Source: Haplodiscus bocki (taxonomy: Eukaryota). From it: a stretch of 64,000 nt of DNA. A program made the translations under genes and the position numbers. The number at the start of each line of letters is the position of its first letter. Within the stretch, counting starts at the first letter, position 1. This document shows positions 1-62,641 of the stretch, in pieces. The stretch is taken from positions 29,698,001 to 29,762,000 of the forward strand of contig OZ296649.1 in the NCBI GenBank assembly GCA_965655095.1, in the 5' to 3' direction. The notes under the pieces are model-generated. The model saw nothing but the letters and a program-made list of their open reading frames with translations. It searched no databases and had not been told where the DNA came from.

Positions 1-1523
1 CATGTGGACGTTGCGCTACGTTATAAGCCTATTGGATGCGACAAGATGATCGAATTTGGTTAAATCTTCGTTCAGTAAGGAATCTTCGTTGTATGGTCTT
101 TCAACCAGGTGAGTGCCCCCTGTATCTTGTATCCTCAATAAAAAGAGGAGAGTGGGAAGAAGTCGTTTCTTAAAAGAAAAATTAAGGAGTTTCACCCTGG
201 TGAAACGTTCGGTTCGAGGATAGAGTCTAGTGTGTTTAGTTTTTTTAAAAAAATAGTAACAAAGTACTTCTCCGTTTATACCATTTAGTTTTGGAACCAG
301 TGCTTCCATGAAAAAGTTTAGTTTGTTTTCTCAGTTAAGTTACGTCGTAAACCCCTCGTTTCCTGTTGGTTTTGATTTAAATTGAAATTCGTGGTTAAAT
401 CCACCGTAGCTTTCCTCCGAACTCTGCTGACGTCGTGTGGTCTTACCAAACGTTACGATTTCTATTCTTTTTCAGTTTTCTGACACAGAATTGATGAATT
501 TGTTGTTTCAGCTCTTCTCTTCCAGGTGTGTCTTGCGTTGCTGATCCTAATTGTGGATCCGTTTTCTTCCTGTTGGAGCCACAACCCGGTCATCTCCGTC
601 GCTTGTACCCTCAAACTGAAACCCTTCGCGTGTGCCCAGCTTTCGGTTCCCAGGAGCAGTCCTTTGTGCCGATGTCAATAATCTGTAGCCCACCGGATCC
701 GATGACTTCCTTCGCTGTTTATACAGAGCGAATGGAATTCAGATGCCTCTCTTGTTCGCTTCGCCCATCCTTCCTTTAGTAATGCCGGATAATCGGCATT
801 TTGCGAGGCTAACCTCTCCTATACCGACCCGATCCGTCTCATGTTTTACCGACTCGACTGTTCACCGTGAATTTGTTGCCCTTCTCAAGGATACCGATAA
901 ACTTGATTCCTTTCGAATTTTTCTTGGCGCTGAAGTGAGCGCTTTTTCCGCCTCCAAAAAACAAATTCCACCGCCTTCGGGAAATTTTAAAGATGACGAT
1001 GAGAAATCTAGAGATGAAGGTAATTGACAACACCATACTTGAACGGAATACCAATGTCCCTAAAGCAATTCTTACTGATCTTCGACAAGATATTGACATT
1101 GAGGGTCTTGAAGCCGATCGTGGCTGAGTTTCAATGATCCATGACCTTGTGGCACCTTTGTACCACAGTTCCCGGATTTCCTCATAAAGTATACCCCTCA
1201 GCTGTCTTCTACAAGCGTTTAGGTTGCAGCCGATATTCCTCCTTGCCGACGCTCAACAAAATTCCATATATTGATTCCTTCATGCCATGCCGACAAGCAT
1301 CCACACTTCTACCTCCACATAGCTCAACGGCTCAATGAAGTTCTATCAAAGTTTGTCTGACAATCGCAGCCGGCGAACATGGAATTGCTGTGCAGTTAGT
1401 GCAGTTAACCGAAGCGATTAAGGTTATTTCTGTCGCCTTTGCAAGCCCCGCCCCTAATACGAGTTGTGTGATCATTATTGGAACTAAAATGGTGCAGGGA
1501 CCCATTTCCTTGAAAGAGGGCAT

Positions 1524-2095
1524 TTTGGAACGGACTTATTTTAAAACAATTTTTTTCATCACCTGTACAATTGTACGCACATATATCTGAATCACTTTTT
1601 TAATGCAATTGCAGTAATAATTCAATCCCTTGATGCAAAATAACGACTGGGAATACGCCTGAAATCAAAAAGTATGTATCTTTCTTTTAATTTGTCCCAA
1701 TACACTTTCATCACCTTTCTTCGTTCCCAATGAGTAATAGACTAAACGCACGTGACTTGTAATCTGTGCTCACCTGAATCGATTTGCAGTTTTAGAAAAA
1801 CATCGTATTGAATTTTTTTCTTTGCAACTCATCCCCTATTTTAGCTGCCAATCCTTGTGCACCAAACTAGACCCATAAGCGCCTTACCGATAAATATCTT
1901 GCTTTCTGGATTTTCTCCACTTATCATACGAGCAGAAAACATCAACACTATAAACATTGCAACGATGTTTGGGTTTTTCTTCGTCAAGTTGATCCATTTT
2001 TGCTTTTTTACGTAATTTTGATGAAAAAATCAAACGTTTTAAGACGAACTTTTGCCAACTTTACCTGAAAGAAATGGCTCCCTCGCATGTGGACG
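1524..2095 (+). repeat. LTR-derived segment of a monomer (representative copy)
   Basis: Colinear with 62079-62636. It follows the purine tract gaaagaggg and ends at catgtggacg. The equivalent segment of the last monomer is followed by the PBS-like site and gag. Confidence 0.75.
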
Positions 2096-5000
2096 TTGCG
2101 CTACGTTATAAGCCTATTGGATGCGACAAGATGATCGAATTTGGTTAAATCTTCGTTCAGTAAGGAATCTTCGTTGTATGGTCTTTCAAGCAGGTGAGTG
2201 CCCCCTGTATCTTGTATCCTCATTAAAAAAGGAGAGTGGGAAGAAAAATTAAGGAGTTTCACCCTGGTGAAACGTTCGGTTCGAGGATAGAGTCTAGTGT
2301 GTTTAGTTTTTTTAAAAAAATAGTAACAAAGTACTTCTCCGTTTATACCATTTAGTTTTGGAACCAGTGCTTCCATGAAAAAGTTTAGTTTGTTTTCTCA
2401 GTTAAGAAAGTTACGTCGTAAACCCCTCGTTTCCTGTTGGTTTCGATATAAATTGAAATTCGTGGTTAAATCCACCGTAGCTTTCCTCCGAACTCTGCTG
2501 ACGTCACGTGCTCTTACCAAACGTTACGATTTCTTTTCTTTTTCAGTTTTCTGACACAGAATTGATGAATTTGTTGTTTCAGCTCTTCTCTTCCAGGTGT
2601 GTCTTGCGTTGCTGATCCTAATTGTGGATCCGTTTTCTTGCTGTTGGAGCCACAACCCGGTCATCTCCGTCGCTTGTACCCTCAAACTGAAACCCTTCGC
2701 GTGTGCCCAGCTTTCGGTTCCCAGGAGCAGTCCTTTGTGCCGATGTCAATAATCTGTAGCCCACCGGATCCGATGACTTCCTTCGCTGTTTATACAGAGC
2801 GAATGAAATTCAGATGCTTCTCTTGTTCGCTTCGCCCATCCTTCCTTTAGTAATGCCGGATAATGCGGCATTTTGCGAGGCTAACCTCTCCTATACCGAC
2901 CCGATCCGTCTCATGTTTTACCGACTCGACTGTTCACCGTGAATTTGTTGCCCTTTTCAAGGATACCGATAAACTTGATTCCTTTCGAATTTTTCTTGGC
3001 GCTGAAGTGAGCGCTTTCTCCGCCTCCAAAAAACAAATTCCACCGCCTTCGGGAAATTTTAAAGATGACGATGAGAAGTCTAGAGATGAAGGTTATTGAC
3101 AACACCATACTTGAACGGAATACCAATGTCCCTAAAGCAATTCTTACTGATCTTCGACAAGATATTGACATTGAGGGTCTTGAAGCCGATCGTGGCTGAG
3201 TTTCAATGATCCATGACCTTGTGGCACCTTTGTACCACAGTTCCCGGATTTCCTGATAAAGTATACCCCTCAGCTGTCTTCTACAAGCGTTTAGGTTGCA
3301 GCCGATATTCCTCCTTGCCGACGCTCAACAAAATTCCATATATTGATTCCTTCATGCCATACCGACAAGCATCCACACTTCTACCTCCACATAGCAGAAC
3401 GGCTCAATGAAGTTCTATCAAAGTTTGTCTGACAATCGCAGCTGGCGAAGATGGAATTGCTGTGCCATTAGTGTAGTTAACCGAAGCAATTAAGGTTATT
3501 TCTGTCGCCTTTGCAAGCCCCGCCCCTAATACGAGTTGAGTGATCATTATTGGAACTAAAATGGTGCAGGGACCCATTTACTTGAAAGAGGTTACTTTGG
3601 AACGGACTTATTTTGAAACAATGTTTTCATCAACTGTACAATTGTACGCACATATATCTGAATCAGTTTTTTAATGCAATTGCAGTAATAATTCATTGCC
3701 TTGATGCAAAATAACGACTGGGAATACGCCTGAAATCAAAAAGTATGTATCTTTCTTTTAATTTGTCCCAACACGCTTTCATCACCTTTCTTCGTTCCCA
3801 ATGAGTAATAGACTGAACGCACGTGACTTGTCACATGAGCTCACCTAAAGCGATTTGCAGTTTTAGAAAACCTTCGTATTGAAGTTTTTTCTTTGCAACT
3901 CATCACTTATTTTAGCTGCCAATTGTTGTGCATCAAACTAGACGCGTAAACCCCTTACCGACAAATATCTTGCTTGCTGGCTTTTCTCTACTCATCATAC
4001 GAGCAGAAAACATCAACACTATAAACATTGCAAAGATGTTTGGATTTTTCTTCGTGAAGGTGATTCATTTTTGCTTTTTTACGATTTTTTGGTGACAAAA
4101 TCAAACATTTTAAGATGAATTTCAGCCAAGTTTACTTGAAACAAAATGCTCCCTGGGATGGGGACGCTGCGCTACGTTATAGGCCCATTGGATCCGAAAA
4201 GATGATCTAATTTGGTTAAATCTTTGTTCAGTAAGGAATCTTCGTTGTATGGTCTTTCAACCAGGTGAGTGCCCCCTGTATCTTGTATCCTCAATAAAAA
4301 AAGGAGTGTGGGAAGAAGTCGTTTCTTTAAAGAAAAATTAAGGAGTTTCGCCCTGGTGAAACGTTCGGGTCGAGGATAGAGTCTAGTGTGTTTAGTTTTT
4401 TTAAAAAAATAGTAACAAAGTACTTCTCCGTTTATACCATTCAGTTTTGGAACCAGTGCTTCCATGAAAAAGTTCATTTTGTTTTCTCTGTTAAGAAAGT
4501 TACGTCGTAAACCCCTCGTTTCCTGTTGGTTTTGATATAAAGTGATATTCGTTGTTAAATCCACCGTAGCTTTCCTCCGAATTGTGCTGACGTCACGTGG
4601 TCTTACCAAACGTTACGATTTCTATTCTTTTTTATTTTTCTGACACAGAATTGATGAGTTTGTTGTTTCAGGTCTTCTCTTCCAGGTGCATCTTGCGCTG
4701 CTGATCCTAATTGTGGATCCGTTTTCTTCCTGTTTGAGCCACAACCCGGTCATCTCCGTCGCTTGTACCGTCAAACTGAAACCCTTCGCGTGTGCCCAGC
4801 TTCCGGTTCCCAGGAGCAGTCCTTTGTGCCGATGTCAATAATCTGTAGCCCGCCGGATTCGATGAATTCATTCTCTGTTAATACAGAGCCAATGAAATTC
4901 AGATGCGTCTTTTTGTTCGCTTCGGCCATCCTTCCTCTAGTAATGCCGGATACTCGGCATTTTGCGAGGCTAACCTCTCCTATACCGACCCGATCCGTCT

Positions 5001-8000
5001 CATGTTTTACCGACTCGACTGTTCACCGTGAATTTGTTGCCCTTCTCAAGTATACCGATAAACTGGATTCCTTTCGAATTACTCTTGCCGCTGAATTGAG
5101 CGCTTTTTCCGCCTCCAAAAAAACAATTTCCATCGCCTTCGGGAAATTTTGGCGATGACGATGAAAAAATAGATGAAGGTTATTGACAACACCATACTTG
5201 AACGGAATGCCAAGGTCCTTAAAGCAATTCTTACTGATCTTCGACAAGACATTGACATTGAGGGTCTTGAAACCGATCGAAGCTGAGTTTCACAGTTCCT
5301 TTGTTCCACCTTTCCCGGATTTCTTGATAACAAAATTCCATGATTAGGTTCCTTGATGGCATACCGCCAAGCATCCACACTTCTACCTCCACTTAGCTCA
5401 ATGGCTCAATGAAGTTCTATCAAAATTTGTCTGACGATCGCAGCCGGCGAACATGGAATTGCTGTGCCATTAGTGCAGTTAACCGAAGCAATTAAGGTTA
5501 TTTCTGTCGCCTTTGCAAGCTCTGCCCCTAATACGAGTTGTGTGATCAATATTGGAACTAAAATGGTGCAAGGACCCATTTCCTTGAAAGACGGCACTTG
5601 GAAACGGACTTATTTTAAAACAATTTTTTCATCACCTGTACAATTGTACGCACATATATATGAATTACTTTTCTTATGCAATTGCAGTAATAATTCAATC
5701 CCTTGATGCAAAATAACGACTGGGAATACGCCTGAAATCAAAAAGTGTATATCTTTCTTTTAATTTGTCCCAACACGCTTTCATCACCTTTCTGCGTTCC
5801 CAATGAGTCATAGACTAAACGCACGTGACTTGTCACATGAGCTCACCTAAATCGATTTGCAGTTTTAGAATACCTTCGTATTGAAGTTTTTTCTTTGCAA
5901 CTCATCCCTTATTTTAGCTGCCAATCCTTGTGCATCAAACTAGACGCGTAAGCCCCTTACCGACAAATATCTTGCTTGCTGGCTTTTCTCTAATCATACG
6001 AGCAGAAAACATCAACTCTATGAACATTGCAACGATGTTTGGGTTTTTCTTCGTGAAGGTGATTCATTTTTGCTTTTTTACGATTTTTTGGTGACAAAAT
6101 CAAACATTTTAAGATGAATTTTAGTCAAGTTTACTTGAAACAAAAGGCTCCATGGGAAAGGGACGCTGCGCTACGTTATAGGCCCATTGGATCCGAAAAG
6201 ATGATGTAATTTGGTTAAATCTTTGTTCAGTAAGGAATCTTCATTGTATGGTCTTTCAACCAGGTGAGTGCCCCCTGTATCTTGTATCCTCAATAAAAAA
6301 AGGAGTGTGGGAAGAAGTCGTTTCTTTAAAGAAAAATTAAGGAGTTTCGCCCTGGTGAAACGTTCGGGTCGAGGATAGAGTCTAGTGTGTTTAGTTTTTT
6401 TTAAAAAAACAGTCACAAAGTACTTCTCCGTTTATACCATTTAGTTTTGGAACCAGTGCTTCCATGAAAAAGTTCAGTTTGTTTTCTCTGTTAAGAAAGT
6501 TACGTCGTAAACCCCTCGTTTCCTGTTGGTTTTGATATTCATTGATATTCGTTGTTAAATCCACCGTAGCTTTCCTCCGAATTCTGCTGACGTCATGTGG
6601 TCTTACCAAACGGTACGATTTCTATTCTTTTTCATTTTTCTGACTCGGAATTGATGAATTTGTTGTTTCATGTCTTCTCTTCCAGGTGTGTCTTGCGTTG
6701 CTGATCCTAATTGGGGATCCGTTTTCTTCCTGTTGGAGCCACAAACCGGTTATCTCCTTCGCCTGTACCCTCAAACTGAAACCCTTCGCGTGTGCCTAGC
6801 TTTCGGTTCCGGGGAGCAGTCCTTTGTTCCAATGTCAACAATCTGGAGCCCGCCGGATCCGATGGATTCATTCGCTGTTAATACAGAGCCAATGAAATTC
6901 AGATGTGTCTTTTTGTCCTCTTCGCCCATCCTTCCTCTAGTAATGCCGGATACTCGGCATTTTGCGAGGCTAACCTCTCCTATACCGACCCGATCCGTCT
7001 CATGTTTTACCGACTCTACTGCTGACCGTGAATTTGCTGCCCTCCTCAAGTTTACCGATAAACTGGATTCCTTTCGAATTACTCTTGCCGCTGAATTGAG
7101 CGCTTTTTCCGCCTCCAAAAAAACAATTTCCATCGCCTTCGGGAAATTTTGGCGATGACGATGAAAAAATAGATGAAGGTTATTGACAACACCATACTTG
7201 AACGGAATGCCAAGTTCCTTAAAGCAATTCTTACTGATCTTCGACAAGATATTGACATTGAGGGTCTTGAAACCGATCGAAGCTGCGTTTCACAGCTCCT
7301 TTGTACCACAGTTCCCGGATTTCTTGATAACAAAGTTCCATGATTAGGTTCCTTCATGGCATACCGACAAGCATCCACACTTCTACCTCCACTTAGCTCA
7401 ATGGCTCAATGAAGTTCTATCAAAATTTGTCTGACAATCGCTGCCGGCGAACATGGAATTGCTGTGCCATTAGTGCAGTTAACCGAAGCAATTAAGGTTA
7501 TTTCTGTCGCCTTTGCAAGCCCCGCCCCTAATACGAGTTGTGTGATCTTTATTGGAACTAAAATGGTGCTAGGACCCATTTCCTTGAAAGAGGGCATTTT
7601 GGAACGGACTTATTTTGAAACATTTGTTTCATCACCTGTACAATTGTACGCACATCTATATGAATTACTTTTTTTATGCAATTGCAGTAATAGTTCAATC
7701 CCTTGATGCAAAGTGACGACTGGGAGTACGACTGAAATCAAAAAGTGTATGTCTTTCTTTCAATTTGTCCCAACACGCTTTCATCACCTTTCTTCGTTCC
7801 CAATGAGTAATAGACTGAACGCACGTGACTTGTAACCTGTGCTCACCTGAATCGATTCGCAGTTTTAGAATAACATCGTATTGAATTTTTTTCTTTGCAA
7901 CTCATCCCCTATTTTAGCTGCCAATCCTTGTGCACCAAATTAGACCCGTAAGCACCTTACCGACAAATATCTTCCTTTTTGGATTTTCTCTACTTATCAT

Positions 8001-11000
8001 ACGAGCAGAAAACATCAACACTATAAACATTGCAACGATGTTTGTCGTCAAGTTGATCCATTTTTGCTTTTTTACGTAATTTTGATTAAAAAATCAAACG
8101 TTTTAAGACGAATTTTAGCCAACTTTACCTAAAGAAATGGCTCCTTCGCATGTGGACGTTGCGCTACGTTATAAGCCTATTGGATGCGACAAGATGATCG
8201 AATTTGGTTAAATCTTCGTTCAGTAAGGAATCCTCGTTGTATGGTCTTTCAACCAGGTGAGTACCCCTTGTATCTTGTATCCTCAATAAAAAAGCAGAAG
8301 GCGGAAGAAGTCGTTTCTTCAAAGAAAATTGAAGGAGTTTGGCCCTGGTAAAACGTTCGGGTCGAGGATAGAGTATAGTGTGTTTAGTTTTTTTGAAAAA
8401 ATAGTAACAAAGTACTTCTCCGTTTATACCATTTAGTTTTGGAACCAGTGCTTCCATGAAAAAGTTCAGTTTGTTTTCTCTGTTAAGAAAGTTACGTCGT
8501 AAACCCCTCGTTTCCTGTTGGTTTTGATATTCATTGATATTCGTTGTTAAATCCACCGTAGCTTTCCTCCGAATTCTGCTGACGTCATGTGGTCTTACCA
8601 AACGGTACGATTTCTATTCTTTTTCATTTTTCTGACTCGGAATTGATGAATTTGTTGTTTCATGTCTTCTCTTCCAGGTGTGTCTTGCGTTGCTGATCCT
8701 AATTGGGGATCCGTTTTCTTCCTGTTGGAGCCACAAACCGGTTATCTCCTTCGCCTGTACCCTCAAACTGAAACCCTTCGCGTGTGCCTAGCTTTCGGTT
8801 CCGGGGAGCAGTCCTTTGTTCCAATGTCAACAATCTGGAGCCCGCCGGATCCGATGGATTCATTCGCTGTTAATACAGAGCCAATGAAATTCAGATGTGT
8901 CTTTTTGTCCTCTTCGCCCATCCTTCCTCTAGTAATGCCGGATACTCGGCATTTTGCGAGGCTAACCTCTCCTATACCGACCCGATCCGTCTCATGTTTT
9001 ACCGACTCTACTGCTGACCGTGAATTTGCTGCCCTCCTCAAGTTTACCGATAAACTGGATTCCTTTCGAATTACTCTTGCCGCTGAATTGAGCGCTTTTT
9101 CCGCCTCCAAAAAAACAATTTCCATCGCCTTCGGGAAATTTTGGCGATGACGATGAAAAAATAGATGAAGGTTATTGACAACACCATACTTGAACGGAAT
9201 GCCAAGTTCCTTAAAGCAATTCTTACTGATCTTCGACAAGATATTGACATTGAGGGTCTTGAAACCGATCGAAGCTGCGTTTCACAGCTCCTTTGTACCA
9301 CAGTTCCCGGATTTCTTGATAACAAAGTTCCATGATTAGGTTCCTTCATGGCATACCGACAAGCATCCACACTTCTACCTCCACATAGCTCAACGGCTCA
9401 ATGAAGTTCTATCAAAGTTTGTCTGACAATCGCAGCCGGCGAACATGGAATTGCTGTGCAGTTAGTGCAGTTAACCGAAGCGATTAAGGTTATTTCTGTC
9501 GCCTTTGCAAGCCCCGCCCCTAATACGAGTTGTGTGATCTTTATTGGAACTAAAATGGTGCTAGGACCCATTTCCTTGAAAGAGGGCATTTTGGAACGGA
9601 CTTATTTTGAAACATTTGTTTCATCACCTGTACAATTGTACGCACATCTATATGAATTACTTTTTTTATGCAATTGCAGTAATAGTTCAATCCCTTGATG
9701 CAAAGTGACGACTGGGAGTACGACTGAAATCAAAAAGTGTATGTCTTTCTTTCAATTTGTCCCAACACGCTTTCATCACCTTTCTTCGTTCCCAATGAGT
9801 AATAGACTGAACGCACGTGACTTGTAACCTGTGCTCACCTGAATCGATTCGCAGTTTTAGAATAACATCGTATTGAATTTTTTTCTTTGCAACTCATCCC
9901 CTATTTTAGCTGCCAATCCTTGTGCACCAAATTAGACCCGTAAGCACCTTACCGACAAATATCTTCCTTTTTGGATTTTCTCTACTTATCATACGAGCAG
10001 AAAACATCAACACTATAAACATTGCAACGATGTTTGTCGTCAAGTTGATCCATTTTTGCTTTTTTACGTAATTTTGATTAAAAAATCAAACGTTTTAAGA
10101 CGAATTTTAGCCAACTTTACCTAAAGAAATGGCTCCTTCGCATGTGGACGTTGCGCTACGTTATAAGCCTATTGGATGCGACAAGATGATCGAATTTGGT
10201 TAAATCTTCGTTCAGTAAGGAATCCTCGTTGTATGGTCTTTCAACCAGGTGAGTACCCCTTGTATCTTGTATCCTCAATAAAAAAGCAGAAGGCGGAAGA
10301 AGTCGTTTCTTCAAAGAAAATTGAAGGAGTTTGGCCCTGGTAAAACGTTCGGGTCGAGGATAGAGTATAGTGTGTTTAGTTTTTTTGAAAAAATAGTAAC
10401 AAAGTACTTCTCCGTTTATACCATTTAGTTTTGGAACCAGTGCTTCCATGAAAAAGTTCAGTTTGTTTTCTCTGTTAAGAAAGTTACGTCGTAAACCCCT
10501 CGTTTCCTGTTGGTTTTGATATTCATTGATATTCGTTGTTAAATCCACCGTAGCTTTCCTCCGAATTCTGCTGACGTCATGTGGTCTTACCAAACGGTAC
10601 GATTTCTATTCTTTTTCATTTTTCTGACTCGGAATTGATGAATTTGTTGTTTCATGTCTTCTCTTCCAGGTGTGTCTTGCGTTGCTGATCCTAATTGGGG
10701 ATCCGTTTTCTTCCTGTTGGAGCCACAAACCGGTTATCTCCTTCGCCTGTACCCTCAAACTGAAACCCTTCGCGTGTGCCTAGCTTTCGGTTCCGGGGAG
10801 CAGTCCTTTGTTCCAATGTCAACAATCTGGAGCCCGCCGGATCCGATGGATTCATTCGCTGTTAATACAGAGCCAATGAAATTCAGATGTGTCTTTTTGT
10901 CCTCTTCGCCCATCCTTCCTCTAGTAATGCCGGATACTCGGCATTTTGCGAGGCTAACCTCTCCTATACCGACCCGATCCGTCTCATGTTTTACCGACTC

Positions 11001-12156
11001 TACTGCTGACCGTGAATTTGCTGCCCTCCTCAAGTTTACCGATAAACTGGATTCCTTTCGAATTACTCTTGCCGCTGAATTGAGCGCTTTTTCCGCCTCC
11101 AAAAAAACAATTTCCATCGCCTTCGGGAAATTTTGGCGATGACGATGAAAAAATAGATGAAGGTTATTGACAACACCATACTTGAACGGAATGCCAAGTT
11201 CCTTAAAGCAATTCTTACTGATCTTCGACAAGATATTGACATTGAGGGTCTTGAAACCGATCGAAGCTGCGTTTCACAGCTCCTTTGTACCACAGTTCCC
11301 GGATTTCTTGATAACAAAGTTCCATGATTAGGTTCCTTCATGGCATACCGACAAGCATCCACACTTCTACCTCCACTTAGCTCAATGGCTCAATGAAGTT
11401 CTATCAAAATTTGTCTGACAATCGCTGCCGGCGAACATGGAATTGCTGTGCCATTAGTGCAGTTAACCGAAGCAATTAAGGTTATTTCTGTCGCCTTTGC
11501 AAGCCCCGCCCCTAATACGAGTTGTGTGATCTTTATTGGAACTAAAATGGTGCTAGGACCCATTTCCTTGAAAAAGTTTACTTTGGAACGGACTTATTTT
11601 GAAACAATTTTTTCATCACCTGTACAATTGTACGCGCATATATCTGAATCACTTTTTTAATGCAATTGCAGTAATAATTCAATCCCTTGATGCAAAGTGA
11701 CGACTGGGAGTACGACTGAAATCAAAAAGTGTATGTCTTTCTTTCAATTTGTCCCAACACGCTTTCATCACCTTTCTTCGTTCCCAATGAGTAATAGACT
11801 GAACGCACGTGACTTGTAACCTGTGCTCACCTGAATCGATTCGCAGTTTTAGAATAACATCGTATTGAATTTTTTTCTTTGCAACTCATCCCCTATTTTA
11901 GCTGCCAATCCTTGTGCACCAAATTAGACCCGTAAGCACCTTACCGACAAATATCTTCCTTTTTGGATTTTCTCTACTTATCATACGAGCAGAAAACATC
12001 AACACTATAAACATTGCAACGATGTTTGGGTTTTTCTTCGTCAAGTTGATCCATTTTTGCTTTTTTACGTAATTTTGATTAAAAAATCAAACGTTTTAAG
12101 ACGAATTTTAGCCAACTTTACCTAAAGAAATGGCTCCTTCGCATGTGGACGTTGCG

Positions 12157-31524: not shown

Positions 31525-34500
31525 GTTTCACTGTTCCTTTGTACCACAGTTCCCCGGATTTCTTGATAACAAAATTCCGTGATTAGGTTCCTTCATTGCA
31601 TACCGACAAGCATCCACACTTCTACCTGCACTTAGCTCAATGGCTGAATGAAATTCTATCAAAATTTGTCTGACAATCGCAGCCGGCGAACATGGAATTG
31701 CTGTGCCATTAGTGCAGTTAACCGAAGCAATTAAGGTTATTTCTTTCGCCTTTGCAAGCCCCGCCCCTAATACGAGTTGTGTGATCATTATTGGAACTAA
31801 AATGGTGCAAGGACCCATTTCCTTGAGAGAGGGCACTTTGGAACGGACTTATTTTAAAACAATTTTTTCATCACCTGTACAATTGTAGGCACATATATGA
31901 ATCACTTTTTTTATGCAATTGCAGTAATAATTCAATCCCTTGATGCAAAATAACGACTGGGAATAGGCCTGAAATCAAAAATGCATTTTTCTTTCTTTCA
32001 TGTCGTCCCAACACGCTTTCATCACCTTTCTTCGTTCCCAATGAGTAATAGACTGAACGCACGTGACTTGTCACATGAGCTCACCTAAATCGATTTGCAG
32101 TTTTAGAATACCTTCGTATTGTCGTTTTTTCTTTGCAACTCATCATTTATTTTAGCTGCCAATTGTTGTGCATCAAACTAGACGCGTAAACCCCTTACCG
32201 ACAAATATCTTTCTTGCTGGCTTTTCTCTACTCATCATACGAGCAGAAAACATCAACACAATAAACATTGCAACTATGTTTGGGTTTTTCTTCGTCAAGT
32301 TGATCCATTTTTGCTGTTTTACGTAATTTTGATGACAAAATCAAACGTTTTAAGACGAATTTTAGCCAACTTTACCTGAAAGAAATGGCTCCCTCGCATG
32401 TGGACGTTGCGCTACGTTGTAGGCCTATTGCATCCGAAAAGATCATCTAATTTGTTCAAATTTTCGTTCAGTAAGGAATCTTCGATGTATGGTCTTTCAA
32501 CCAGGTGAGTGCCCCCTGTATCTTGTTACTCAATAAATAAAGCAGAGTGGGAAGAAGTCGTTTCTTTAAAGAAAAATTAAGCAGGTTCGCCCTGGTGAAA
32601 CGTTCGGGTCGAGGATAGAGTCTAGTGTGTTTAGTTTTTTTAAAAAAATAGTAACAAAGTACTTCTCCGTTTATACCATTTAGTTTTGGAACCAGTGCTT
32701 CCACGAAAAAGTTCAGTTTGTTATCTCTGTTAAGAAAGTTACGTCGTAAACCCCTCGTTTCCTGTTGGTTTTGGTATAAATTGATATTCGTTGTTAAATC
32801 CACCGTAGCTTTCCTCCGAATTCTGCTGACCTCACGTGGTCTTACCAAACGTTACGATTTCTATTCTTTTTCAGTTTTCTGAAGCAGAATTGATGAATTT
32901 GTTGTTTCAGGTCTTCTGTTCCAGGTGCGTCTTGCGTTGCTGATGCTAATTGGGGATCCGTTTTCTTCCTGTTGGAGCCACAAACCGGATATCTCCTTCG
33001 CCTGTACCCTCAAACGGAAACCCTTCGCGTGTGCCCAGCTTTCGGTTCCCAGGAGCAGTCCTTTGTGCCGATGTCAACAATCTGTAGCCCACTGGATCCG
33101 ATGACTTCCTTCGCTGTTAATACAGAGCGGATGAAATTCAGATGCGTCTCTTGTCCGCTTCGCCCATACTTCCTCTAGTAATGCCGGATACTCGGCATTT
33201 TGCGAGGCTAACCTCTCCTATACCGACCCGATCCGTCTCATGTTTTACCGACTCGACTGTTGACCGTGAATTTGCTGCCCTTCTCAAGGATACCGATAAA
33301 CTGGATTCCTTTCGAATTACTCTTGGCGCTGAAATGAGCGCTTTCTCCGCCTCCGAAGAAGAAATTCCACCGCCTTCGGGAAATTTTGGAGATGACGATG
33401 AGAAATCTAGAGAGGAAGGTTATTGACAACACCATACTTGAACGGAATACCAATGTCCCTAAAGCAATTCTTACTGATCTTCGACAAGATATTGACATTG
33501 AGGGTCTTGAAGCCGATCGTGGCTGAGTTTCAATGATCCACGACCTTGTGGCACCTTTGTACCACAGTTCCCGGATTTCCTGATAAAGTATACCCCTCGC
33601 TGTCTTCTACAAGCGTTTAGGTTGCAGTCGATATTCCTCCTTGCCGACGCTCAACAAAGTTCCATAATTTGATTCCTTCATGCCATATCGACAAGCATCC
33701 ACGCTTCTACCTCCACATAGCTCAACGGCTCAATGAAGTTCTATCAAAATTTGTCTGACAATCGCAGCCGGCGAATATGGAATTGCTGTGCCATTAGTGC
33801 AGTTAACCGAAGCAATTAAGGTTATTTCTGTCGTCTTTGCAAGCCCCGCCCCTAATACGAGTTGTGTGATCATTATTGGAACTAAAATGGTGCAAGGACC
33901 CATTTCCGTGAGAGAGGCCACTTTGGAACGGACTTATTTTAAAACAATTTTTTCATCACCTGTACAATTGTAGGCACATATATGAATCACTTTTTTTATG
34001 CAATTGCAGTAATAATTCAATCCCTTGATGCAAAATAACGCCCGGGAATACGCCTGAAAGCAAAAAGTATGTATCTTTCTTTTATATTGTCCCAACACGC
34101 TTTCATCACCTTTCTTCGTTCCCAATGAGTAATAGACTAAACGCACGTGACTTGTAACCTGTGCTCACCTGAATCGATTTGCAGTTTTAGAATAACATCG
34201 TAATGAATTTTTTTCTTTGCAACTCATCCCCTATTTTAGCTGCCAATTCTTGTGCACCAAACTAGACCCGTAAACGCCTTACCGACAAATATCTTGCTTT
34301 CTGGATTTTCTCTACTTATCATACGAGCAGAAAACATCAACACTATAAACATTGCAACGATGTTTGGGTTTTTCTTCGTCAAGTTGATCCATTTTTGCTT
34401 TTTTAAGTAATTTTGATTACAAAATCAAACGTTTTAAGACGAATTTTAGCCAACTTTACCTGAAAGAAATGGCTCACTCGCATGTGGACGTTGCGATACG

Positions 34501-34971
34501 TTATAGGCCTATTGGATCCGAAAAGATGATCTAATATGGTTAAATCTTCGTTCAGTAAGGAATCTTCGTTGTATGGTCTTTCAACCAGGTTAGTACCCCT
34601 TGTATCTTGTATCCTCAATAAAAAAGCAGAAGGAGGAAGAAGTCGTTTCTTTAAAAAAATTTGAAGGAGTTTGGCCCTGGCAAAACGTTCGAATGGAGGA
34701 TAGCGTGTAGTGTGTTTAATTTTTTGAAAAATAATAAAGTAATTCTCCGTTTATACCATTTAGTTTTGGAACCAGTGCTTCTAACAAAAAGTTCAGTTTG
34801 TTCTCTCTCTCTCAAGAAGGTCACCTCGTAACCCCCTCGTGTCCGGTTGGTTTTGATATAAATTGAAATTCCTGGTTGAATCCACCTTAGCTTTCCTCCG
34901 AATTCTCCTGACGTCACGTGGTCTTTCCAAACGTTACGATTTCTACTCTTTTTTAATTTTCTGACACAGAA

Positions 34972-35598
34972 TTGATTTGTTGTTTCAGGTCTTCTCTTCC
35001 AGGTGCATCTTGCGCTGCTGGTGCTAATTGTGGATCCGTTTTCTTCCTGTTGGAGCCACAAACCGGTTATCTCCTTCGCCTGTACCCTCAAACGGAATTC
35101 CTTCGCGTGTGCCCAGCTTTCGGTTCCCGGGAGCAGTCCTTTGTTCCGATGTCAACAATCTGGAGCCCGCCGGATCCGATGACTTCATTCGCTGTTAATA
35201 CAGAGCCAATGAAATGCGTCTTATTGTCCGCTTCGCCCATCCCTCCTCTAGTTATTCCGGATACTCGGCATTTTGCGAGGCTAACCTCTCCTATACCGAC
35301 GCGATCCGTATCATGTTTTACTGACTCGGCTGTCGACCGTGAATTTGCTGCCCTTCTCAAGTATACCGATAAACTGGATTCCTTTCGAGTTACTCTTGGC
35401 GCTGACAGAGAGCTCTTTCTCCACCTCGAAAACAAATTCCACCGCCTTCAGGAAATTTTGGAGATGACGATGAAAAAACTAGAGGCGAAGGTTATTGACA
35501 GCAGCATATTTGAACGGAATGCCAAGGTCCTTACAGCATTTCTTTCTGATCTCCGACAAGATATTGACATTGAGGGTCTTGAAGCCGATCGTGGCTGA
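34972..35598 (+). CDS. Uninterrupted copy of the accessory ORF
   Basis: 208-codon frame ending ...LRQDIDIEGLEADRG*; heptad-like L/I/M spacing in the last ~70 aa. Confidence 0.4.
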   Translation: MICCFRSSLPGASCAAGANCGSVFFLLEPQTGYLLRLYPQTEFLRVCPAFGSREQSFVPMSTIWSPPDPMTSFAVNTEPMKCVLLSASPIPPLVIPDTRHFARLTSPIPTRSVSCFTDSAVDREFAALLKYTDKLDSFRVTLGADRELFLHLENKFHRLQEILEMTMKKLEAKVIDSSIFERNAKVLTAFLSDLRQDIDIEGLEADRG

Positions 35599-38500
35599 GT
35601 TCCGATGATCCATGACCTTGTGGCACCTTTGTACCACAGTTCCCGTATTTCTTGATGAAGTATACCCCTCAGCTGCCTTCTACAAGCTTTTAGGTTTTAG
35701 TCGAGATGCCTCATTGCCGATGTTCATCAAATTTCCATATTTGGATTCCTTCATGCCATACCGGCAAGCATACGCACTTCTACCTCCACATAGATCAGCG
35801 GCTCAATCAAGTTTTATCAAAATTTGTCTGACAATCGCAACCGCCGAACATGCAACTGCTGTGCCATTAGTGCAGTTAACCGAAGCAGTTGCGGTTATTT
35901 CTGTCGCCTTTGCAAGCCCCGCCCCTAAAACGAGTTGTATGATCATTATTGGAACTAAAATGGTGCAAGGACCCATTTCCTTGAGAGAGGGCACTTTGGA
36001 ACGGACTTATTTTAAAACAATTTTTTCATCACCTGTACAATTGTACGCACATCTATACGAACTACTTTTTTTATGCAATTGCAGTGATAATTCAATCCCT
36101 TGATGCAAAATAACGACTGGGAATAGGCCTGATATCAAAAAGTATGTTTCTTTCTTTTAATTTGTCCCAACACGTTTTCATCACCCTTCTTCGTTCCCAA
36201 TGAGTAATAGACTAAACGCACATGACTTGTCACATGAGCTCACCTAAAGCGATTTGCAGTTTTAGAATACCTTCGTATTGAAGTGTTTTTGCAACTCATC
36301 CCTTATTTTAGCTGCCAATCGTTGTGCACCAAACTAGACCCGTAAGCGACTTACCGACAAATATCTTGCTTTCTGGATTTTCTCTACTTATCATACGAGC
36401 AGAAAACATCAACACTATAAACATTGCAACGATGTTTGGGTTTTTCTTCGTCAAGTTGATCCATTTTTGCTGTTTTACGTAATTTTGATGACAAAATCAA
36501 ACGTTTTAAGACAAATTTTAGCCAACTTTACCTGAAAGAAATGGCTCCCTCGCATGTGGACGTTGCGCTACGTTGTAGGCCTATTGCATCCGAAAAGATC
36601 ATCCAATTTGTTCAAATTTTCGTTCAGTAAGGAATCTTCGATGTATGGTCCTTCAACCAGCTGAGTGCCCCTTGTATCTTGTATACTCAATTAAAAAGGC
36701 ACAACGGTGAAGAAGTCGTTGCTATAAAGAAAAATGAAGGAGTTTGGCCCTGGCAAAACGTTCGGGTCGAGGATAGCGTCTGGTGTGTTTAGTTAAAAAA
36801 TTTTTGGAACAAAGTAATTCTCAGTTTATAACATTTAGTTTTGGAACCAGTGCTTGCAAGAATAAGTTCAGTTTGTTTTCTCTGTTAAGAAAGTTACGTC
36901 GTAAACCCCTCGTTTCCTGTTGGTTTTGATATTCATTGATATTCGTTGTTAAATCCACCGTAGCTTTCCTCTGAATTCTGCTGACGTCATGTGGTCTTAC
37001 CAAACGGTACGATTTCTATTCTTTTTCATTTTTCTGACTCGGAATTGATGAATTTGTTGTTTCATGTCTTCTCTTCCAGGTGTGTCTTGCGTTGCTGATC
37101 CTAATTGGGGATCCGTTTTCTTCCTGTTGGAGCCACAAACCGGTTATCTCCTTCGCCTGTACCCTCAAACTGAAACCCTTCGCGTGTGCCTAGCTTTCGG
37201 TTCCGGGGAGCAGTCCTTTGTTCCAATGTCAACAATCTGGAGCCCGCCGGATCCGATGGATTCATTCGCTGTTAATACAGAGCCAATGAAATTCAGATGT
37301 GTCTTTTTGTCCTCTTCGCCCATCCTTCCTCTAGTAATGCCGGATACTCGGCATTTTGCGAGGCTAACCTCTCCTATACCGACCCGATCCGTCTCATGTT
37401 TTACCGACTCGACTGTTGACCGTGAATTTGCTGCCCTTCTCAAGGATACCGATAAACTGGATTCCTTTCGAATTACTCTTGGCGCTGAAATGAGCGCTTT
37501 CTCCGCCTCCGAAGAAGAAATTCCACCGCCTTCGGGAAATTTTGGAGATGACGATGAGAAATCTAGAGAGGAAGGTTATTGACAACACCATACTTGAACG
37601 GAATACCAATGTCCCTAAAGCAATTCTTACTGATCTTCGACAAGATATTGACATTGAGGGTCTTGAAGCCGATCGTGGCTGAGTTTCAATGATCCACGAC
37701 CTTGTGGCACCTTTGTACCACAGTTCCCGGATTTCCTGATAAAGTATACCCCTCGCTGTCTTCTACAAGCGTTTAGGTTGCAGTCGATATTCCTCCTTGC
37801 CGACGCTCAACAAAGTTCCATAATTTGATTCCTTCATGCCATATCGACAAGCATCCACGCTTCTACCTCCACATAGCTCAACGGCTCAATGAAGTTCTAT
37901 CAAAATTTGTCTGACAATCGCAGCCGGCGAATATGGAATTGCTGTGCCATTAGTGCAGTTAACCGAAGCAATTAAGGTTATTTCTGTCGTCTTTGCAAGC
38001 CCCGCCCCTAATACGAGTTGTGTGATCATTATTGGAACTAAAATGGTGCAAGGACCCATTTCCGTGAGAGAGGCCACTTTGGAACGGACTTATTTTAAAA
38101 CAATTTTTTCATCACCTGTACAATTGTAGGCACATATATGAATCACTTTTTTTATGCAATTGCAGTAATAATTCAATCCCTTGATGCAAAATAACGCCCG
38201 GGAATACGCCTGAAAGCAAAAAGTATGTATCTTTCTTTTATATTGTCCCAACACGCTTTCATCACCTTTCTTCGTTCCCAATGAGTAATAGACTAAACGC
38301 ACGTGACTTGTAACCTGTGCTCACCTGAATCGATTTGCAGTTTTAGAATAACATCGTAATGAATTTTTTTCTTTGCAACTCATCCCCTATTTTAGCTGCC
38401 AATTCTTGTGCACCAAACTAGACCCGTAAACGCCTTACCGACAAATATCTTGCTTTCTGGATTTTCTCTACTTATCATACGAGCAGAAAACATCAACACT

Positions 38501-39127
38501 ATAAACATTGCAACGATGTTTGGGTTTTTCTTCGTCAAGTTGATCCATTTTTGCTTTTTTAAGTAATTTTGATTACAAAATCAAACGTTTTAAGACGAAT
38601 TTTAGCCAACTTTACCTGAAAGAAATGGCTCACTCGCATGTGGACGTTGCGATACGTTATAGGCCTATTGGATCCGAAAAGATGATCTAATATGGTTAAA
38701 TCTTCGTTCAGTAAGGAATCTTCGTTGTATGGTCTTTCAACCAGGTTAGTACCCCTTGTATCTTGTATCCTCAATAAAAAAGCAGAAGGAGGAAGAAGTC
38801 GTTTCTTTAAAAAAATTTGAAGGAGTTTGGCCCTGGCAAAACGTTCGAATGGAGGATAGCGTGTAGTGTGTTTAATTTTTTGAAAAATAATAAAGTAATT
38901 CTCCGTTTATACCATTTAGTTTTGGAACCAGTGCTTCTAACAAAAAGTTCAGTTTGTTCTCTCTCTCTCAAGAAGGTCACCTCGTAACCCCCTCGTGTCC
39001 GGTTGGTTTTGATATAAATTGAAATTCCTGGTTGAATCCACCTTAGCTTTCCTCCGAATTCTCCTGACGTCACGTGGTCTTTCCAAACGTTACGATTTCT
39101 ACTCTTTTTTAATTTTCTGACACAGAA

Positions 39128-39754
39128 TTGATTTGTTGTTTCAGGTCTTCTCTTCCAGGTGCATCTTGCGCTGCTGGTGCTAATTGTGGATCCGTTTTCT
39201 TCCTGTTGGAGCCACAAACCGGTTATCTCCTTCGCCTGTACCCTCAAACGGAATTCCTTCGCGTGTGCCCAGCTTTCGGTTCCCGGGAGCAGTCCTTTGT
39301 TCCGATGTCAACAATCTGGAGCCCGCCGGATCCGATGACTTCATTCGCTGTTAATACAGAGCCAATGAAATGCGTCTTATTGTCCGCTTCGCCCATCCCT
39401 CCTCTAGTTATTCCGGATACTCGGCATTTTGCGAGGCTAACCTCTCCTATACCGACGCGATCCGTATCATGTTTTACTGACTCGGCTGTCGACCGTGAAT
39501 TTGCTGCCCTTCTCAAGTATACCGATAAACTGGATTCCTTTCGAGTTACTCTTGGCGCTGACAGAGAGCTCTTTCTCCACCTCGAAAACAAATTCCACCG
39601 CCTTCAGGAAATTTTGGAGATGACGATGAAAAAACTAGAGGCGAAGGTTATTGACAGCAGCATATTTGAACGGAATGCCAAGGTCCTTACAGCATTTCTT
39701 TCTGATCTCCGACAAGATATTGACATTGAGGGTCTTGAAGCCGATCGTGGCTGA
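39128..39754 (+). CDS. Uninterrupted copy of the accessory ORF
   Basis: Translation identical to 34972-35598 (4156-bp duplicate). Confidence 0.4.
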   Translation: MICCFRSSLPGASCAAGANCGSVFFLLEPQTGYLLRLYPQTEFLRVCPAFGSREQSFVPMSTIWSPPDPMTSFAVNTEPMKCVLLSASPIPPLVIPDTRHFARLTSPIPTRSVSCFTDSAVDREFAALLKYTDKLDSFRVTLGADRELFLHLENKFHRLQEILEMTMKKLEAKVIDSSIFERNAKVLTAFLSDLRQDIDIEGLEADRG

Positions 39755-42030
39755 GTTCCGATGATCCATGACCTTGTGGCACCTTTGTACCACAGTTCCC
39801 GTATTTCTTGATGAAGTATACCCCTCAGCTGCCTTCTACAAGCTTTTAGGTTTTAGTCGAGATGCCTCATTGCCGATGTTCATCAAATTTCCATATTTGG
39901 ATTCCTTCATGCCATACCGGCAAGCATACGCACTTCTACCTCCACATAGATCAGCGGCTCAATCAAGTTTTATCAAAATTTGTCTGACAATCGCAACCGC
40001 CGAACATGCAACTGCTGTGCCATTAGTGCAGTTAACCGAAGCAGTTGCGGTTATTTCTGTCGCCTTTGCAAGCCCCGCCCCTAAAACGAGTTGTATGATC
40101 ATTATTGGAACTAAAATGGTGCAAGGACCCATTTCCTTGAGAGAGGGCACTTTGGAACGGACTTATTTTAAAACAATTTTTTCATCACCTGTACAATTGT
40201 ACGCACATCTATACGAACTACTTTTTTTATGCAATTGCAGTGATAATTCAATCCCTTGATGCAAAATAACGACTGGGAATAGGCCTGATATCAAAAAGTA
40301 TGTTTCTTTCTTTTAATTTGTCCCAACACGTTTTCATCACCCTTCTTCGTTCCCAATGAGTAATAGACTAAACGCACATGACTTGTCACATGAGCTCACC
40401 TAAAGCGATTTGCAGTTTTAGAATACCTTCGTATTGAAGTGTTTTTGCAACTCATCCCTTATTTTAGCTGCCAATCGTTGTGCACCAAACTAGACCCGTA
40501 AGCGACTTACCGACAAATATCTTGCTTTCTGGATTTTCTCTACTTATCATACGAGCAGAAAACATCAACACTATAAACATTGCAACGATGTTTGGGTTTT
40601 TCTTCGTCAAGTTGATCCATTTTTGCTGTTTTACGTAATTTTGATGACAAAATCAAACGTTTTAAGACAAATTTTAGCCAACTTTACCTGAAAGAAATGG
40701 CTCCCTCGCATGTGGACGTTGCGCTACGTTGTAGGCCTATTGCATCCGAAAAGATCATCCAATTTGTTCAAATTTTCGTTCAGTAAGGAATCTTCGATGT
40801 ATGGTCCTTCAACCAGCTGAGTGCCCCTTGTATCTTGTATACTCAATTAAAAAGGCACAACGGTGAAGAAGTCGTTGCTATAAAGAAAAATGAAGGAGTT
40901 TGGCCCTGGCAAAACGTTCGGGTCGAGGATAGCGTCTGGTGTGTTTAGTTAAAAAATTTTTGGAACAAAGTAATTCTCAGTTTATAACATTTAGTTTTGG
41001 AACCAGTGCTTGCAAGAATAAGTTCAGTTTGTTTTCTCTCTGAAGATTGTTACCTCATAAACCCCTCGTGTCCTGCTGTTTTCATATAAATTGATTGTCG
41101 TGGTTAAATCCACCGGAGCTTTCCTCCGAGCTCTGCTGACGTCACGTAGTCTTACCAAACGTTACGATTTCTATTCTTTTTCAGTTTTCTGAAGCAGAAT
41201 TGATGAATTTGTTGTTTCAGGTCTTCTGTTCCAGGTGCGTCTTGCGCTGCTGATGCTAATTGTGGATCCGTTTTCTTCCTGTTGGAGCCACAAACCGGTT
41301 ATTTCCTTCGACTGTACCCTCAAACTGAAACCCTTCGCGTCTGCCCAGCTTTCGGTTCCCAGGAGCAGTCTTTCTTTGTGCCGACGTCAACAATCTGGAG
41401 CCCGCCCGATGCGATGACTTCCTTCGCTGTTAATACAGAGCCAATGAATTTCAGATGCGTCTCTTGTCCGCTTCGCCGATCCTTCTTCTAGTTATGCCGT
41501 ATGCTCGGCATTTTGCGACGCTAACCTTTCCTATACGGACCCGATCCGTCTCATGTTTTACCAACTCGACTGTCGACCGTGATTTTGCTGCCTTCTGAAG
41601 GATACCGATAAACTGGATCTCTTTCGAATTACTCTTGGCCCTGAAAGACAGCGCTTTCTCCGCGTCGAGAACAAGTTCCCGGATTTCTTGATAAAGTATA
41701 CACCTCAGCTCTCTTCTACAAGCTTTTAGGTTTCGGCCGAGATGCCTCCTTGCCGAAGCTCAACAAAAATGCATAGTTTGATTCCTTCATGCCATACCGA
41801 TAAGCATCCACACTTCTGCTGTTACATAACTCAACGGCTCAATGGAGTTCTATCAAAATTTGTCCGACAATCGCAGCTGCCGAACATGCAATTGCTGTGC
41901 CCTTAGTGCAGTTAACCGAAGCAATTAAGGTTATTACTGTCGCCTTTGCCAGTCCCGCCCCTAATCTGAGTTGTGTGAACACTATTGGAACTAAAATGGT
42001 GCAAGGACCCATTTCCTTGAAAGAGGGGAC

Positions 42031-42559
42031 TTTGGAACGGACTTATTTCAAAACAATTTTTTCATCACCTGTACATTTGTTCGCACATATATATGAATCA
42101 CTTTTTTTATACAATTGAATTAATAATTCAATCCCTTGATGCAAAATAACGACTGGGAATACGCGCGAAATCAAAAAGTTTATATATTTCTTTTATTTGG
42201 TCCCAACACGTTTTCATGAACTTTTTTCGTTCTCAATGAGTAATAGACTAAGCGCACGTAACTTGTCACGTGACCTCACCTGGATCGCTTTGCAATTTTA
42301 GAATATCTTTATTCAAGTGTTTTCTTTGTATGTCCTCCCTTTTTTTCGTTTCGGCTTTTGGTGCAGCAAACTAGTCGTGAGCCTCACACCGACAAATATC
42401 TTGCTTTCTGCATTTTCTCTATTTATCAGCATCATGTTTGTCTTTTTCCTCATCAACGTAATTCATTTTTGCTCACGTTTTCAGGAAGAAATCTGACGGT
42501 CTGATGACGAATTTCAGCCGAATATACTTAGAACCTATAGCTCCCCACGGTAGCGGACG
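42031..42559 (+). repeat. 5' LTR (also the end of the last array monomer)
   Basis: Homologous to 62079-62636. Homology to monomers stops at ...tagcggacg (42559) and is followed by tggtgac and the leader instead of the flank segment. The 3' half is clearly more diverged. Confidence 0.75.
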
Positions 42560-42569
42560 CTTTTAAGTT

Positions 42570-42587
42570 TGGTGACAGAGTTTGCGA
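42570..42587 (+). promoter_or_regulatory. Candidate primer-binding site TGGTGACAGAGTTTGCGA
   Basis: Begins with TGG (complement of tRNA CCA) 10 nt after the inferred LTR end; cognate tRNA not identified. Confidence 0.55.
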
Positions 42588-44830: not shown

Positions 44831-44929
44831 AGCCTTTACACTAGAGCAACTTGCGCATGAGGAAGGCGGCTGCGCAGGGGATCATAATCGTCTCGCCAAT
44901 GAACCAGCGATTCTCAATTCTGTCATGGA

Positions 44930-45300: not shown

Positions 45301-45304
45301 AAAG

Positions 45305-62636: not shown

Positions 62637-62641
62637 TTGCG

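What the first reader, a model, noticed from the sequence alone, without database searches (positions are those of the whole stretch)
1..42559. A macrosatellite built from the 3' provirus-host junction, with its source locus still beside it
Seen: each monomer (e.g. 11-2095) is ~320 bp flank + ~50 bp linker + ~1.14 kb of element 3' interior + PPT + ~570 bp LTR. The same pieces occur once in native order at 61264-62962, where interior follows env and the flank continues into unique DNA. In the array the flank end is joined back to the interior start, and the array lies upstream of the element, ending in its 5' LTR. Inference: this fits a ~2.1-kb extrachromosomal circle (or equivalent copy) of the 3' junction that entered the 5' LTR by LTR homology and expanded by rolling-circle copying and/or unequal exchange. 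Satellites derived from LTR elements are known in general; capturing the host flank and retaining the source is what stands out here.
Basis: partly seen in the sequence, partly recalled or inferred. Interest (0 to 1): 0.85.

Follow-up and report, generated by a model that had tools for sequence, protein, structure and literature searches.

The report
Satellite born from a retrotransposon's end
A 2-kb piece spanning the end of an old retrotransposon and its neighbouring DNA was copied into a tandem array right beside its parent, which records the steps of satellite DNA birth but fits ordinary chromosome recombination as well as the proposed DNA circle.

Summary
The array is real: 20 full units of 1992-2086 bp (88.7-100% alike) plus a truncated last unit whose LTR runs into the 5' end of a decayed, env-bearing Ty3/gypsy retrotransposon. 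Each unit is ~325 bp flank + ~40 bp linker + ~1.13 kb interior + PPT + ~570 bp LTR.

Divergences give an order: 5' vs 3' LTR (0.28-0.38), then source interior and flank vs array (both 0.20), then last unit vs array (0.12), then array radiation (0.07-0.10). A ~345-bp tract of the source LTR is array-like (0.06), which points to later gene conversion.

Nothing in the window needs a circle. One illegitimate joint plus LTR-to-LTR ectopic recombination gives the same structure, and the units show stepwise, recombining growth. Verdict: a well-preserved new variant of LTR-derived satellites; eccDNA origin possible (about 0.3), not shown.

The parts
1..41043 (+). Tandem array, 20 full units of 1992-2086 bp; continues left beyond the window
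38655..38974 (+). Example unit: captured flank (homolog of 62645-62968)
38975..39012 (+). Example unit: ~40-bp linker, no match elsewhere in the window; origin unresolved
39125..40114 (+). Example unit: decayed accessory ORF (coiled coil + C-terminal J-domain), stop ~25 bp before the PPT
40139..40726 (+). Example unit: polypurine tract and 3'-type LTR
33169..41039 (+). Newest two-unit (4156-bp) duplication, 3715 bp exactly identical; very recent or an assembly duplicate
41044..42030 (+). Last, edge-diverged unit: linker + interior with ~200-bp deletion at 41677/41678 + PPT
42031..42566 (+). Hybrid LTR: left part array-like, right part the original 5' LTR; switch at ~42260-42330
42570..42587 (+). 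PBS-like motif (starts TGG); tRNA partner not tested
   Evidence: by eye
42588..46071 (+). Element 5' body: leader, presumed gag and protease (no Pfam hit), start of RT
   Evidence: negative; RT start by identity with 49254-50019
46062..50019 (+). Recent tandem duplicate of ~38570-46071 (1.5 array units + leader piece + pol piece) with two internal deletions at 2-bp microhomologies
50020..50645 (+). Rest of Ty3/gypsy RT
   Evidence: (weak, E 0.15)
50646..56036 (-). Nested non-LTR retrotransposon (PHD, endonuclease, RT) with 9-bp target-site duplication at 50637 and 56037
56037..58900 (+). RNase H, TARG1-like macrodomain remnant (~56745-56990), integrase; right end approximate
59286..61250 (+). 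Decayed env-like ORF (baculovirus-F-like family), cut short at its 3' end
61260..62066 (+). Source interior: J-domain ORF remnant with a 311-bp deletion at 61966/61967
62067..62643 (+). PPT and 3' LTR; 62164-62508 is an array-like (converted) tract
62645..62968 (+). Source flank captured into the unit; runs on into DNA unmatched in the window

Best explanation
A locus-born macrosatellite made by chromosomal recombination. (1) An env-bearing Ty3/gypsy element inserted and began to decay [shown: domains, LTR divergence]. (2) Later one illegitimate joint fused a point ~325 bp into the right flank back to a point just upstream of the accessory ORF, defining the 2.1-kb unit [shown: one joint, equal ages of interior and flank; the chemistry is inferred]. 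(3) Ectopic recombination between a 3'-type LTR and the 5' LTR put the unit upstream of the element [shown: hybrid LTR; route inferred]. Route (a): an in-place tandem duplication, then unequal LTR-LTR exchange with a chromosome carrying a single 3' end. Route (b): repair of a break in the 5' LTR that copied the 3' LTR, ran into the flank, slipped back 2.1 kb and re-annealed. (4) The array grew and homogenised stepwise by unequal exchange and gene conversion [shown for the pattern]. (5) The source then lost two segments and had part of its LTR overwritten by an array copy; a LINE entered pol; a 7.5-kb duplication copied 1.5 units into pol [structures shown; order partly inferred]. The array is most likely selfish or neutral DNA; its ORF is decayed.
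For: Interior and flank equally far from the source (0.200, 0.199), younger than the 5'/3' LTR split (0.28-0.38). Hybrid LTR. Array-to-source exchange did occur: 3 private sites of 345 in 62164-62508 against 150 of 1363 outside, LLR 50.8 vs maximum 18.5 in 100 permutations (coarser grid), and the source nests among the units in the LTR tree but is the outlier in the interior tree. Microhomology-joined tandem duplication occurred at this very locus. Divergence rises with distance (lag 1-2 ~5%, lag 16-19 9-10%; rho 0.42, 0 of 5000 permutations), exact repeats sit at one- and two-unit offsets, and four-gamete incompatibility rises from 0.08 to 0.30 with site distance. LTR elements form tandems mostly by LTR-LTR recombination in Drosophila (PMC5932611, passages); a chromosomal route was proposed for maize CRM1TR/CRM4TR (PMC3648361, Discussion).
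Against: All recombination evidence concerns later history; it does not show how the first unit moved. A circle gives the same in-window product. Later homogenisation would erase a rolling-circle signature. Microhomology at the founding joint cannot be checked because the source has lost the DNA left of 61260. Route (a) needs a partner chromosome with one 3' end or later loss of extra downstream units. That the source's env deletion ends within ~40 bp of the unit start is unexplained. Distances rest on short stretches (~290-700 bp) and assume equal rates.
Confidence: 0.55

Rival explanations
1. One reading: a ~2.1-kb extrachromosomal circle of interior-LTR-flank formed from a sister copy, recombined into the 5' LTR, perhaps as a rolling-circle concatemer, then evolved by unequal exchange.
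For: Predicts the hybrid LTR, the single joint, equal ages of interior and flank, and a single retained source. Rolling-circle reinsertion is a proposed route for TE tandems (PMC5932611 Fig. 1B legend; not excluded in PMC3648361).
Against: No feature requires it. The unit tree is structured by position, not star-like. The locus shows chromosomal duplication and conversion at work. It needs two events (circle formation, targeted re-entry), no fewer than the chromosomal routes.
Confidence: 0.3
2. The array came first, from an earlier insertion at its left end; a different family copy then entered the last unit by LTR recombination (one-LTR circle or ectopic exchange). Then 61260-62066 is the incoming element and 62645-62968 is just the array's terminal flank, not a 'source'.
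For: Explains without a separate conversion why the source LTR is array-like (0.06) while its interior is not (0.20), and why the 5' LTR's right part is so distant.
Against: The array-like tract starts ~150-200 bp left of the position reciprocal to the switch in the 5' LTR and fades after 62508. The source flank is as far from the array (0.20) as the source interior, and farther than the last unit's left part (0.12), which under this model came from the same unit.
Confidence: 0.1
3. The 'flank' is not single-copy host DNA (part of a longer LTR, or of another repeat the element landed in), or much of the array is an assembly artefact.
For: Flank GC (0.36) matches both LTR (0.35) and downstream DNA (0.34), so composition does not separate them. 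No eukaryotic DNA collection could be searched. One 3715-bp exact repeat could be an assembly duplicate.
Against: The 5' LTR's homology ends just before the PBS-like motif, at the point matching ~62640, so the flank is outside the LTR. Units differ by up to 11% in structured ways. A protein from a different contig (P0023, 27,755 bp) is 98.6% identical over 148 aa to one unit type, so such units exist in another record. 124 fetched family proteins gave no credible match to 62645-64000 (2 weak hits, E 0.016 and 0.022).
Confidence: 0.05

Closest known systems
Maize CRM1TR / CRM4TR (PMC3648361; abstract, passages and Discussion read)
   Same: Locus-restricted tandem repeats with 0.7-1.4-kb units derived from Ty3/gypsy LTR plus adjacent sequence; begun by an illegitimate joint; varied by gene conversion; later TE insertions nearby.
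   Different: Those are entirely element-derived (LTR + UTR) and can arise by deletion inside one element; here the unit spans the 3' end, includes outside DNA, and had to move upstream; the parent copy is beside it.
Sobo satellite of Solanum bulbocastanum (known here only from its description in PMC3648361, and a table row in PMC9659126; original paper not read)
   Same: Kilobase unit (4.7 kb), one locus (~360 kb), mixing gypsy LTR with other genomic DNA: capture of non-element DNA in an LTR-derived satellite is already known.
   Different: The passages read do not describe a retained adjacent source or an array ending in the parent's 5' LTR.
Tandem LTR retrotransposons sharing an LTR (PMC5932611, passages)
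   Same: PPT-LTR-PBS joint made by ectopic LTR-LTR recombination, as at 42019-42587.
   Different: There the repeating unit is the element itself; here it is a 3' fragment plus flank.
Ogre 3'UTR-derived satellites (PMC7004042, passages)
   Same: Satellites arising from the 3' part of LTR retrotransposons.
   Different: Those expand short repeats already inside the 3'UTR; here the unit is 2 kb, with no internal array, and includes the whole LTR.
Env-bearing Ty3/gypsy elements (errantivirus-like; name recalled, not from a call)
   Same: RT closest to Ty3, RT-RNase H-integrase order, env homologs with Baculo_F hits.
   Different: Carries a J-domain ORF between env and PPT and a TARG1-like macrodomain remnant in pol; not found in the literature searches.

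Membership tests
Macrosatellite / long-unit satellite DNA | Head-to-tail units of kilobase length | tested here: met
   20 units of 1992-2086 bp
Macrosatellite / long-unit satellite DNA | Array of tens of kb or more | tested here: met
   at least 42 kb; left end outside the window
Macrosatellite / long-unit satellite DNA | Concerted evolution (local homogenisation, diverged edge units) | tested here: met
Macrosatellite / long-unit satellite DNA | Copy-number variation between individuals; read-level support | not testable with these tools
   no reads or population data
LTR-retrotransposon-derived tandem repeat | Unit homologous to part of an identifiable LTR element | tested here: met
CRM1TR/CRM4TR type | Unit entirely element-derived (LTR + UTR) | tested here: not met
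   unit holds ~325 bp from outside the LTR
eccDNA / rolling-circle-seeded array | Single circularisation joint shared by all units | tested here: met
   23 of 23 joints alike; also expected of a tandem duplication
eccDNA / rolling-circle-seeded array | Units born identical at one time (star-like tree, no relation to position) | tested here: inconclusive
   present pattern is position-dependent and mosaic, but later exchange could have overwritten a burst
eccDNA / rolling-circle-seeded array | Left end is host DNA + LTR with matching TSD, no second element body | not testable with these tools
   left end lies outside the window
Ty3/gypsy LTR retrotransposon | Two LTRs with PBS and PPT | tested here: met
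   PBS judged by eye, tRNA partner not tested
Ty3/gypsy LTR retrotransposon | pol order RT - RNase H - integrase, Ty3-like RT | tested here: met
   (best hits 4ol8 and Ty3-G Gag-Pol, E 2e-6 and 9e-6)
Ty3/gypsy LTR retrotransposon | gag and protease upstream of RT | tested here: inconclusive
   no Pfam hit in 42560-46100
Ty3/gypsy LTR retrotransposon | Target-site duplication | not testable with these tools
   left host junction outside the window
Errantivirus-like (env-bearing Ty3/gypsy) | Third ORF related to baculovirus F | tested here: met
   22 homologs; 2 of 3 env homologs scanned hit Baculo_F; atlas top hits Baculo_F on 12-23% of members
Errantivirus-like (env-bearing Ty3/gypsy) | RT phylogeny within the insect errantivirus clade | not tested
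   RT too decayed; no tree built
J-domain (DnaJ) proteins, accessory ORF | J-domain profile match with the signature motif | tested here: met
   for homologs only: P0026 E 9.4e-07; 15 of 17 chosen homologs hit at E<=0.01, 8 above the curated cut-off; motif in 26 of 99. Window copies are decayed: no Pfam hit, motif intact in 0 of 11 units where located
J-domain (DnaJ) proteins, accessory ORF | ORF is a regular part of the element family | not testable with these tools
   position shown only in this element; homologs have no genomic context

The most novel reading that the evidence does not exclude
The locus is a dated fossil of eccDNA seeding a satellite: a circle spanning the 3' element-host junction re-entered its own 5' LTR, amplified, and later exchanged sequence back with its source. 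The parent also belongs to an undescribed lineage of env-bearing Ty3/gypsy elements with their own J-domain co-chaperone ORF and a TARG1-like macrodomain (this second part alone I put at about 0.6).
Probability: 0.2. Interest if true: 0.72.

Novelty: new variant of a known kind. Interest (0 to 1): 0.45.

Why it matters
The first step of satellite birth is usually erased. Here the parent insertion, the founding joint, the hybrid LTR and a dated series of later events survive within 64 kb, so the competing routes (circle, unequal LTR exchange, template-switch repair) can be narrowed by reading the array's left end and a few haplotypes. It also shows an array rewriting part of its single-copy parent more than 13 kb away, a warning for LTR-LTR dating: the converted tract makes the 3' LTR look young against the array. 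Separately, the unit preserves a J-domain ORF remnant that the parent partly lost, a lead to a retroelement lineage with its own Hsp70 co-chaperone.

Tried and rejected
1. Linker as the env C-terminal tail: a by-eye resemblance failed; a profile of 22 env tails hit only the source's own env (E 5.9e-06) among 144 translated targets, and 12 pairwise tests gave 13-298 of 300 shuffles at or above the score.
2. Linker as a templated insertion from nearby DNA: 18 of 18 local alignments at shuffle level.
3. Flank as a second, inverted family element: no credible tblastn or blastn match. An inverted match between one unit's PPT region and the flank end scored 0 of 1000 shuffles locally and 17 of 1000 over 62645-64000, but the source's own PPT gave nothing (409 and 722 of 1000) and the test was post hoc; kept only as a curiosity.
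4. RNA genes: none (ARAGORN, whole window; Rfam 38000-64000 only).
5. Pfam on one unit in six frames and on 62000-64000: 0 hits. Macrodomain: Pfam negative; PDB hits weak (E 0.37 and 0.008, both to TARG1/OARD1, in collinear order).
6. A homolog search with the whole decayed unit ORF found nothing among 2261 candidates, although a 215-aa open part found 4 of 156. Atlas search of P0026 gave only scores under 0.9.
7. Flank against phage genomes: no match, uninformative.
8. Names and taxa of the homologs could not be obtained, so the host group is not stated.
9. Supplements of the papers were not read; they could hold closer examples.
Full report
Observation. A self-comparison and anchor mapping show 20 full units between 4 and 40712, 1992-2086 bp long and 88.7-100% identical, then a truncated last unit ending in an LTR at about 42566. 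Each unit matches 61264-62968 in two blocks. The order is flank (~325 bp), linker (~40 bp), interior (~1.13 kb), polypurine tract, LTR (~570 bp). The flank-linker joint is in the same place in all 23 copies printed. The array's left end is outside the window.

(a) 46062-49120 holds 1.5 more units. They are part of a tandem duplicate of ~38570-46071 that differs by 26 of 3043 and 5 of 766 aligned bases in its two long pieces (4 of 140 in the short one) and has two internal deletions joined at 2-bp microhomologies. (b) The source lacks 311-312 bp present in the units, and that segment is native coding sequence: homolog P0026 aligns across it collinearly (34% over 288 aa, E 2e-41). (c) The env-interior joint of the source is a deletion: homology to 775-aa P0001 ends at residue 681, window 61250. 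So the 'source' is a damaged copy, and the linker may be native DNA it lost; two tests of other origins were negative.

The parent element. RT is closest to Ty3, followed by RNase H (E 1.6e-10) and integrase (E 1.7e-4): a Ty3/gypsy element. gag and protease gave no profile hit. The env-like ORF has 22 homologs among the 8000 candidates scored, two of three scanned hitting Baculo_F. A LINE with a 9-bp target-site duplication fills 50646-56036 on the minus strand. The unit's interior is a decayed accessory ORF whose stop lies ~25 bp before the PPT. Its family has 100 representatives at E<=0.001, 2 of them the window's own; 82 of 99 family proteins match one unit. I scanned 17 of the 99, chosen for length or C-terminal cover: 15 hit DnaJ, 8 above the cut-off, one of these probably an ordinary cellular DnaJ. 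Between RNase H and integrase two adjacent pieces hit TARG1/OARD1 weakly and in order.

Order of events. K2P distances: right part of the 5' LTR against 3'-type LTRs 0.28-0.33 pairwise, 0.38 (0.29-0.47) in the multiple alignment; source interior against the array 0.200 (0.17-0.23); source flank 0.199 (0.16-0.25); left part of the last unit 0.124 (0.11-0.14); unit against unit 0.07-0.10. Insertion came first; interior and flank left the source together; the array radiated later.

The two LTRs are mosaics. The last LTR is array-like on the left and diverges on the right, with the rise from about 42266 and a best change point at 42329 (69 private sites of 1166 left, 58 of 242 right): a crossover between a unit LTR and the 5' LTR. 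The 3' LTR has a tract, 62164-62508, with 3 private sites of 345 against 150 of 1363 outside (LLR 50.8; maximum 18.5 in 100 permutations on a coarser grid), K2P 0.062; in trees the source is the longest branch for interior and flank but sits among the units for this tract. Units are not more conserved there among themselves (0.070 vs 0.072 in the interior), so constraint does not explain it. Gene conversion from an array unit is the simplest reading (inference).

How the array grew. Divergence rises with distance (rho 0.42, 0 of 5000 permutations), lag-2 units are slightly closer than lag-1, and incompatibility among 311 informative sites rises from 0.08 (under 50 bp apart) to 0.30 (over 500 bp). 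The longest exact repeats lie at offsets of one, two or three units, the largest 3715 bp at 4156, and one 547-bp match lies ten units away. This is stepwise unequal exchange and conversion. It does not exclude an earlier rolling-circle burst.

Mechanism. Any model needs one non-homologous joint and one LTR-LTR homologous joint. A circle supplies them in two steps. So does an in-place tandem duplication followed by unequal exchange between a unit LTR and the 5' LTR of a chromosome with a single 3' end; this predicts another element body at the left end. So does one break-repair event with a template switch, whose product equals the circle's. Both ingredients of the chromosomal routes are seen acting at this locus, and LTR-LTR recombination is the usual source of LTR tandems in Drosophila (PMC5932611, passages). 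I give the chromosomal routes 0.55, the circle 0.3, entry of a different copy into a pre-existing array 0.1, and non-host flank or artefact 0.05. These are judgements, not computed values.

Results against my reading. The array-like tract in the 3' LTR overlaps the position reciprocal to the 5' switch, which the third model predicts in part. The env deletion ends within ~40 bp of the unit start, unexplained. The 3715-bp exact repeat may be an assembly duplicate. Host origin of the flank rests on the LTR boundary and on absence of matches within the window only.

Comparison with the literature. Satellites from gypsy LTR regions are established (PMC3648361: abstract, passages, Discussion; PMC7004042: passages; PMC9659126: passages). 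Sobo already mixes LTR and genomic DNA (as described in PMC3648361; original not read). Five searches read as listings showed no title describing a flank-capturing array ending in its parent's 5' LTR; this is weak evidence of absence, as most subscription papers are not held and supplements were not read. For a J-domain ORF in such elements, searches returned 0 papers and one search returned 3, of which I checked one by passage (a host protein) and two not at all; for a macrodomain, one search returned 0.

Verdict. Real and unusually legible, but a new variant of a known kind. The eccDNA story is one of three routes that fit and is not the best supported. Interest 0.45.

Noticed in passing
window 39125-40114 (every unit) and 61354-62039: Decayed accessory ORF between env and PPT whose homologs carry a coiled coil and a C-terminal J-domain; 100 representatives at 50% clustering, mostly fragments; not found in the literature searches.
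   Followed up: partly
window 56745-56990: TARG1/OARD1-like macrodomain remnant between RNase H and integrase (PDB E 0.37 and 0.008, collinear; Pfam negative).
   Followed up: partly
window 50646-56036, minus strand: Apparently full-length nested LINE (PHD finger, endonuclease, RT) with 9-bp target-site duplication and a short TA-rich 3' end; holds a 24-bp x3 repeat at 52115-52185.
   Followed up: partly
window 46062-50019: Recent 7.5-kb tandem duplication with two microhomology deletions that carried 1.5 array units into pol; array spreading across its own boundary.
   Followed up: yes
window 62164-62508: Array-like tract in the 3' LTR, probable gene conversion from a unit more than 13 kb away.
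   Followed up: yes
window 62956-62971: The flank end resembles the reverse complement of the PPT region of some units (15 matches, 2 gaps), right at the founding joint; not seen with the source's own PPT; post hoc.
   Followed up: partly
window 33169-36883 and 37325-41039: 3715 bp exactly identical at a two-unit offset: a very recent dimer duplication or an assembly duplicate.
   Followed up: no
window 16457 and 36864: 547-bp exact match ten units apart, suggesting long-range conversion inside the array.
   Followed up: no
protein P0023 (contig of 27,755 bp): 98.6% identical over 148 aa to the unit type at 46627-47070 but with a different frame afterwards: the same unit type exists in another record (other haplotype, assembly or locus).
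   Followed up: no
window 61250-61264: The deletion that cut env ends within ~40 bp of the unit's left boundary; the two events may be linked.
   Followed up: partly
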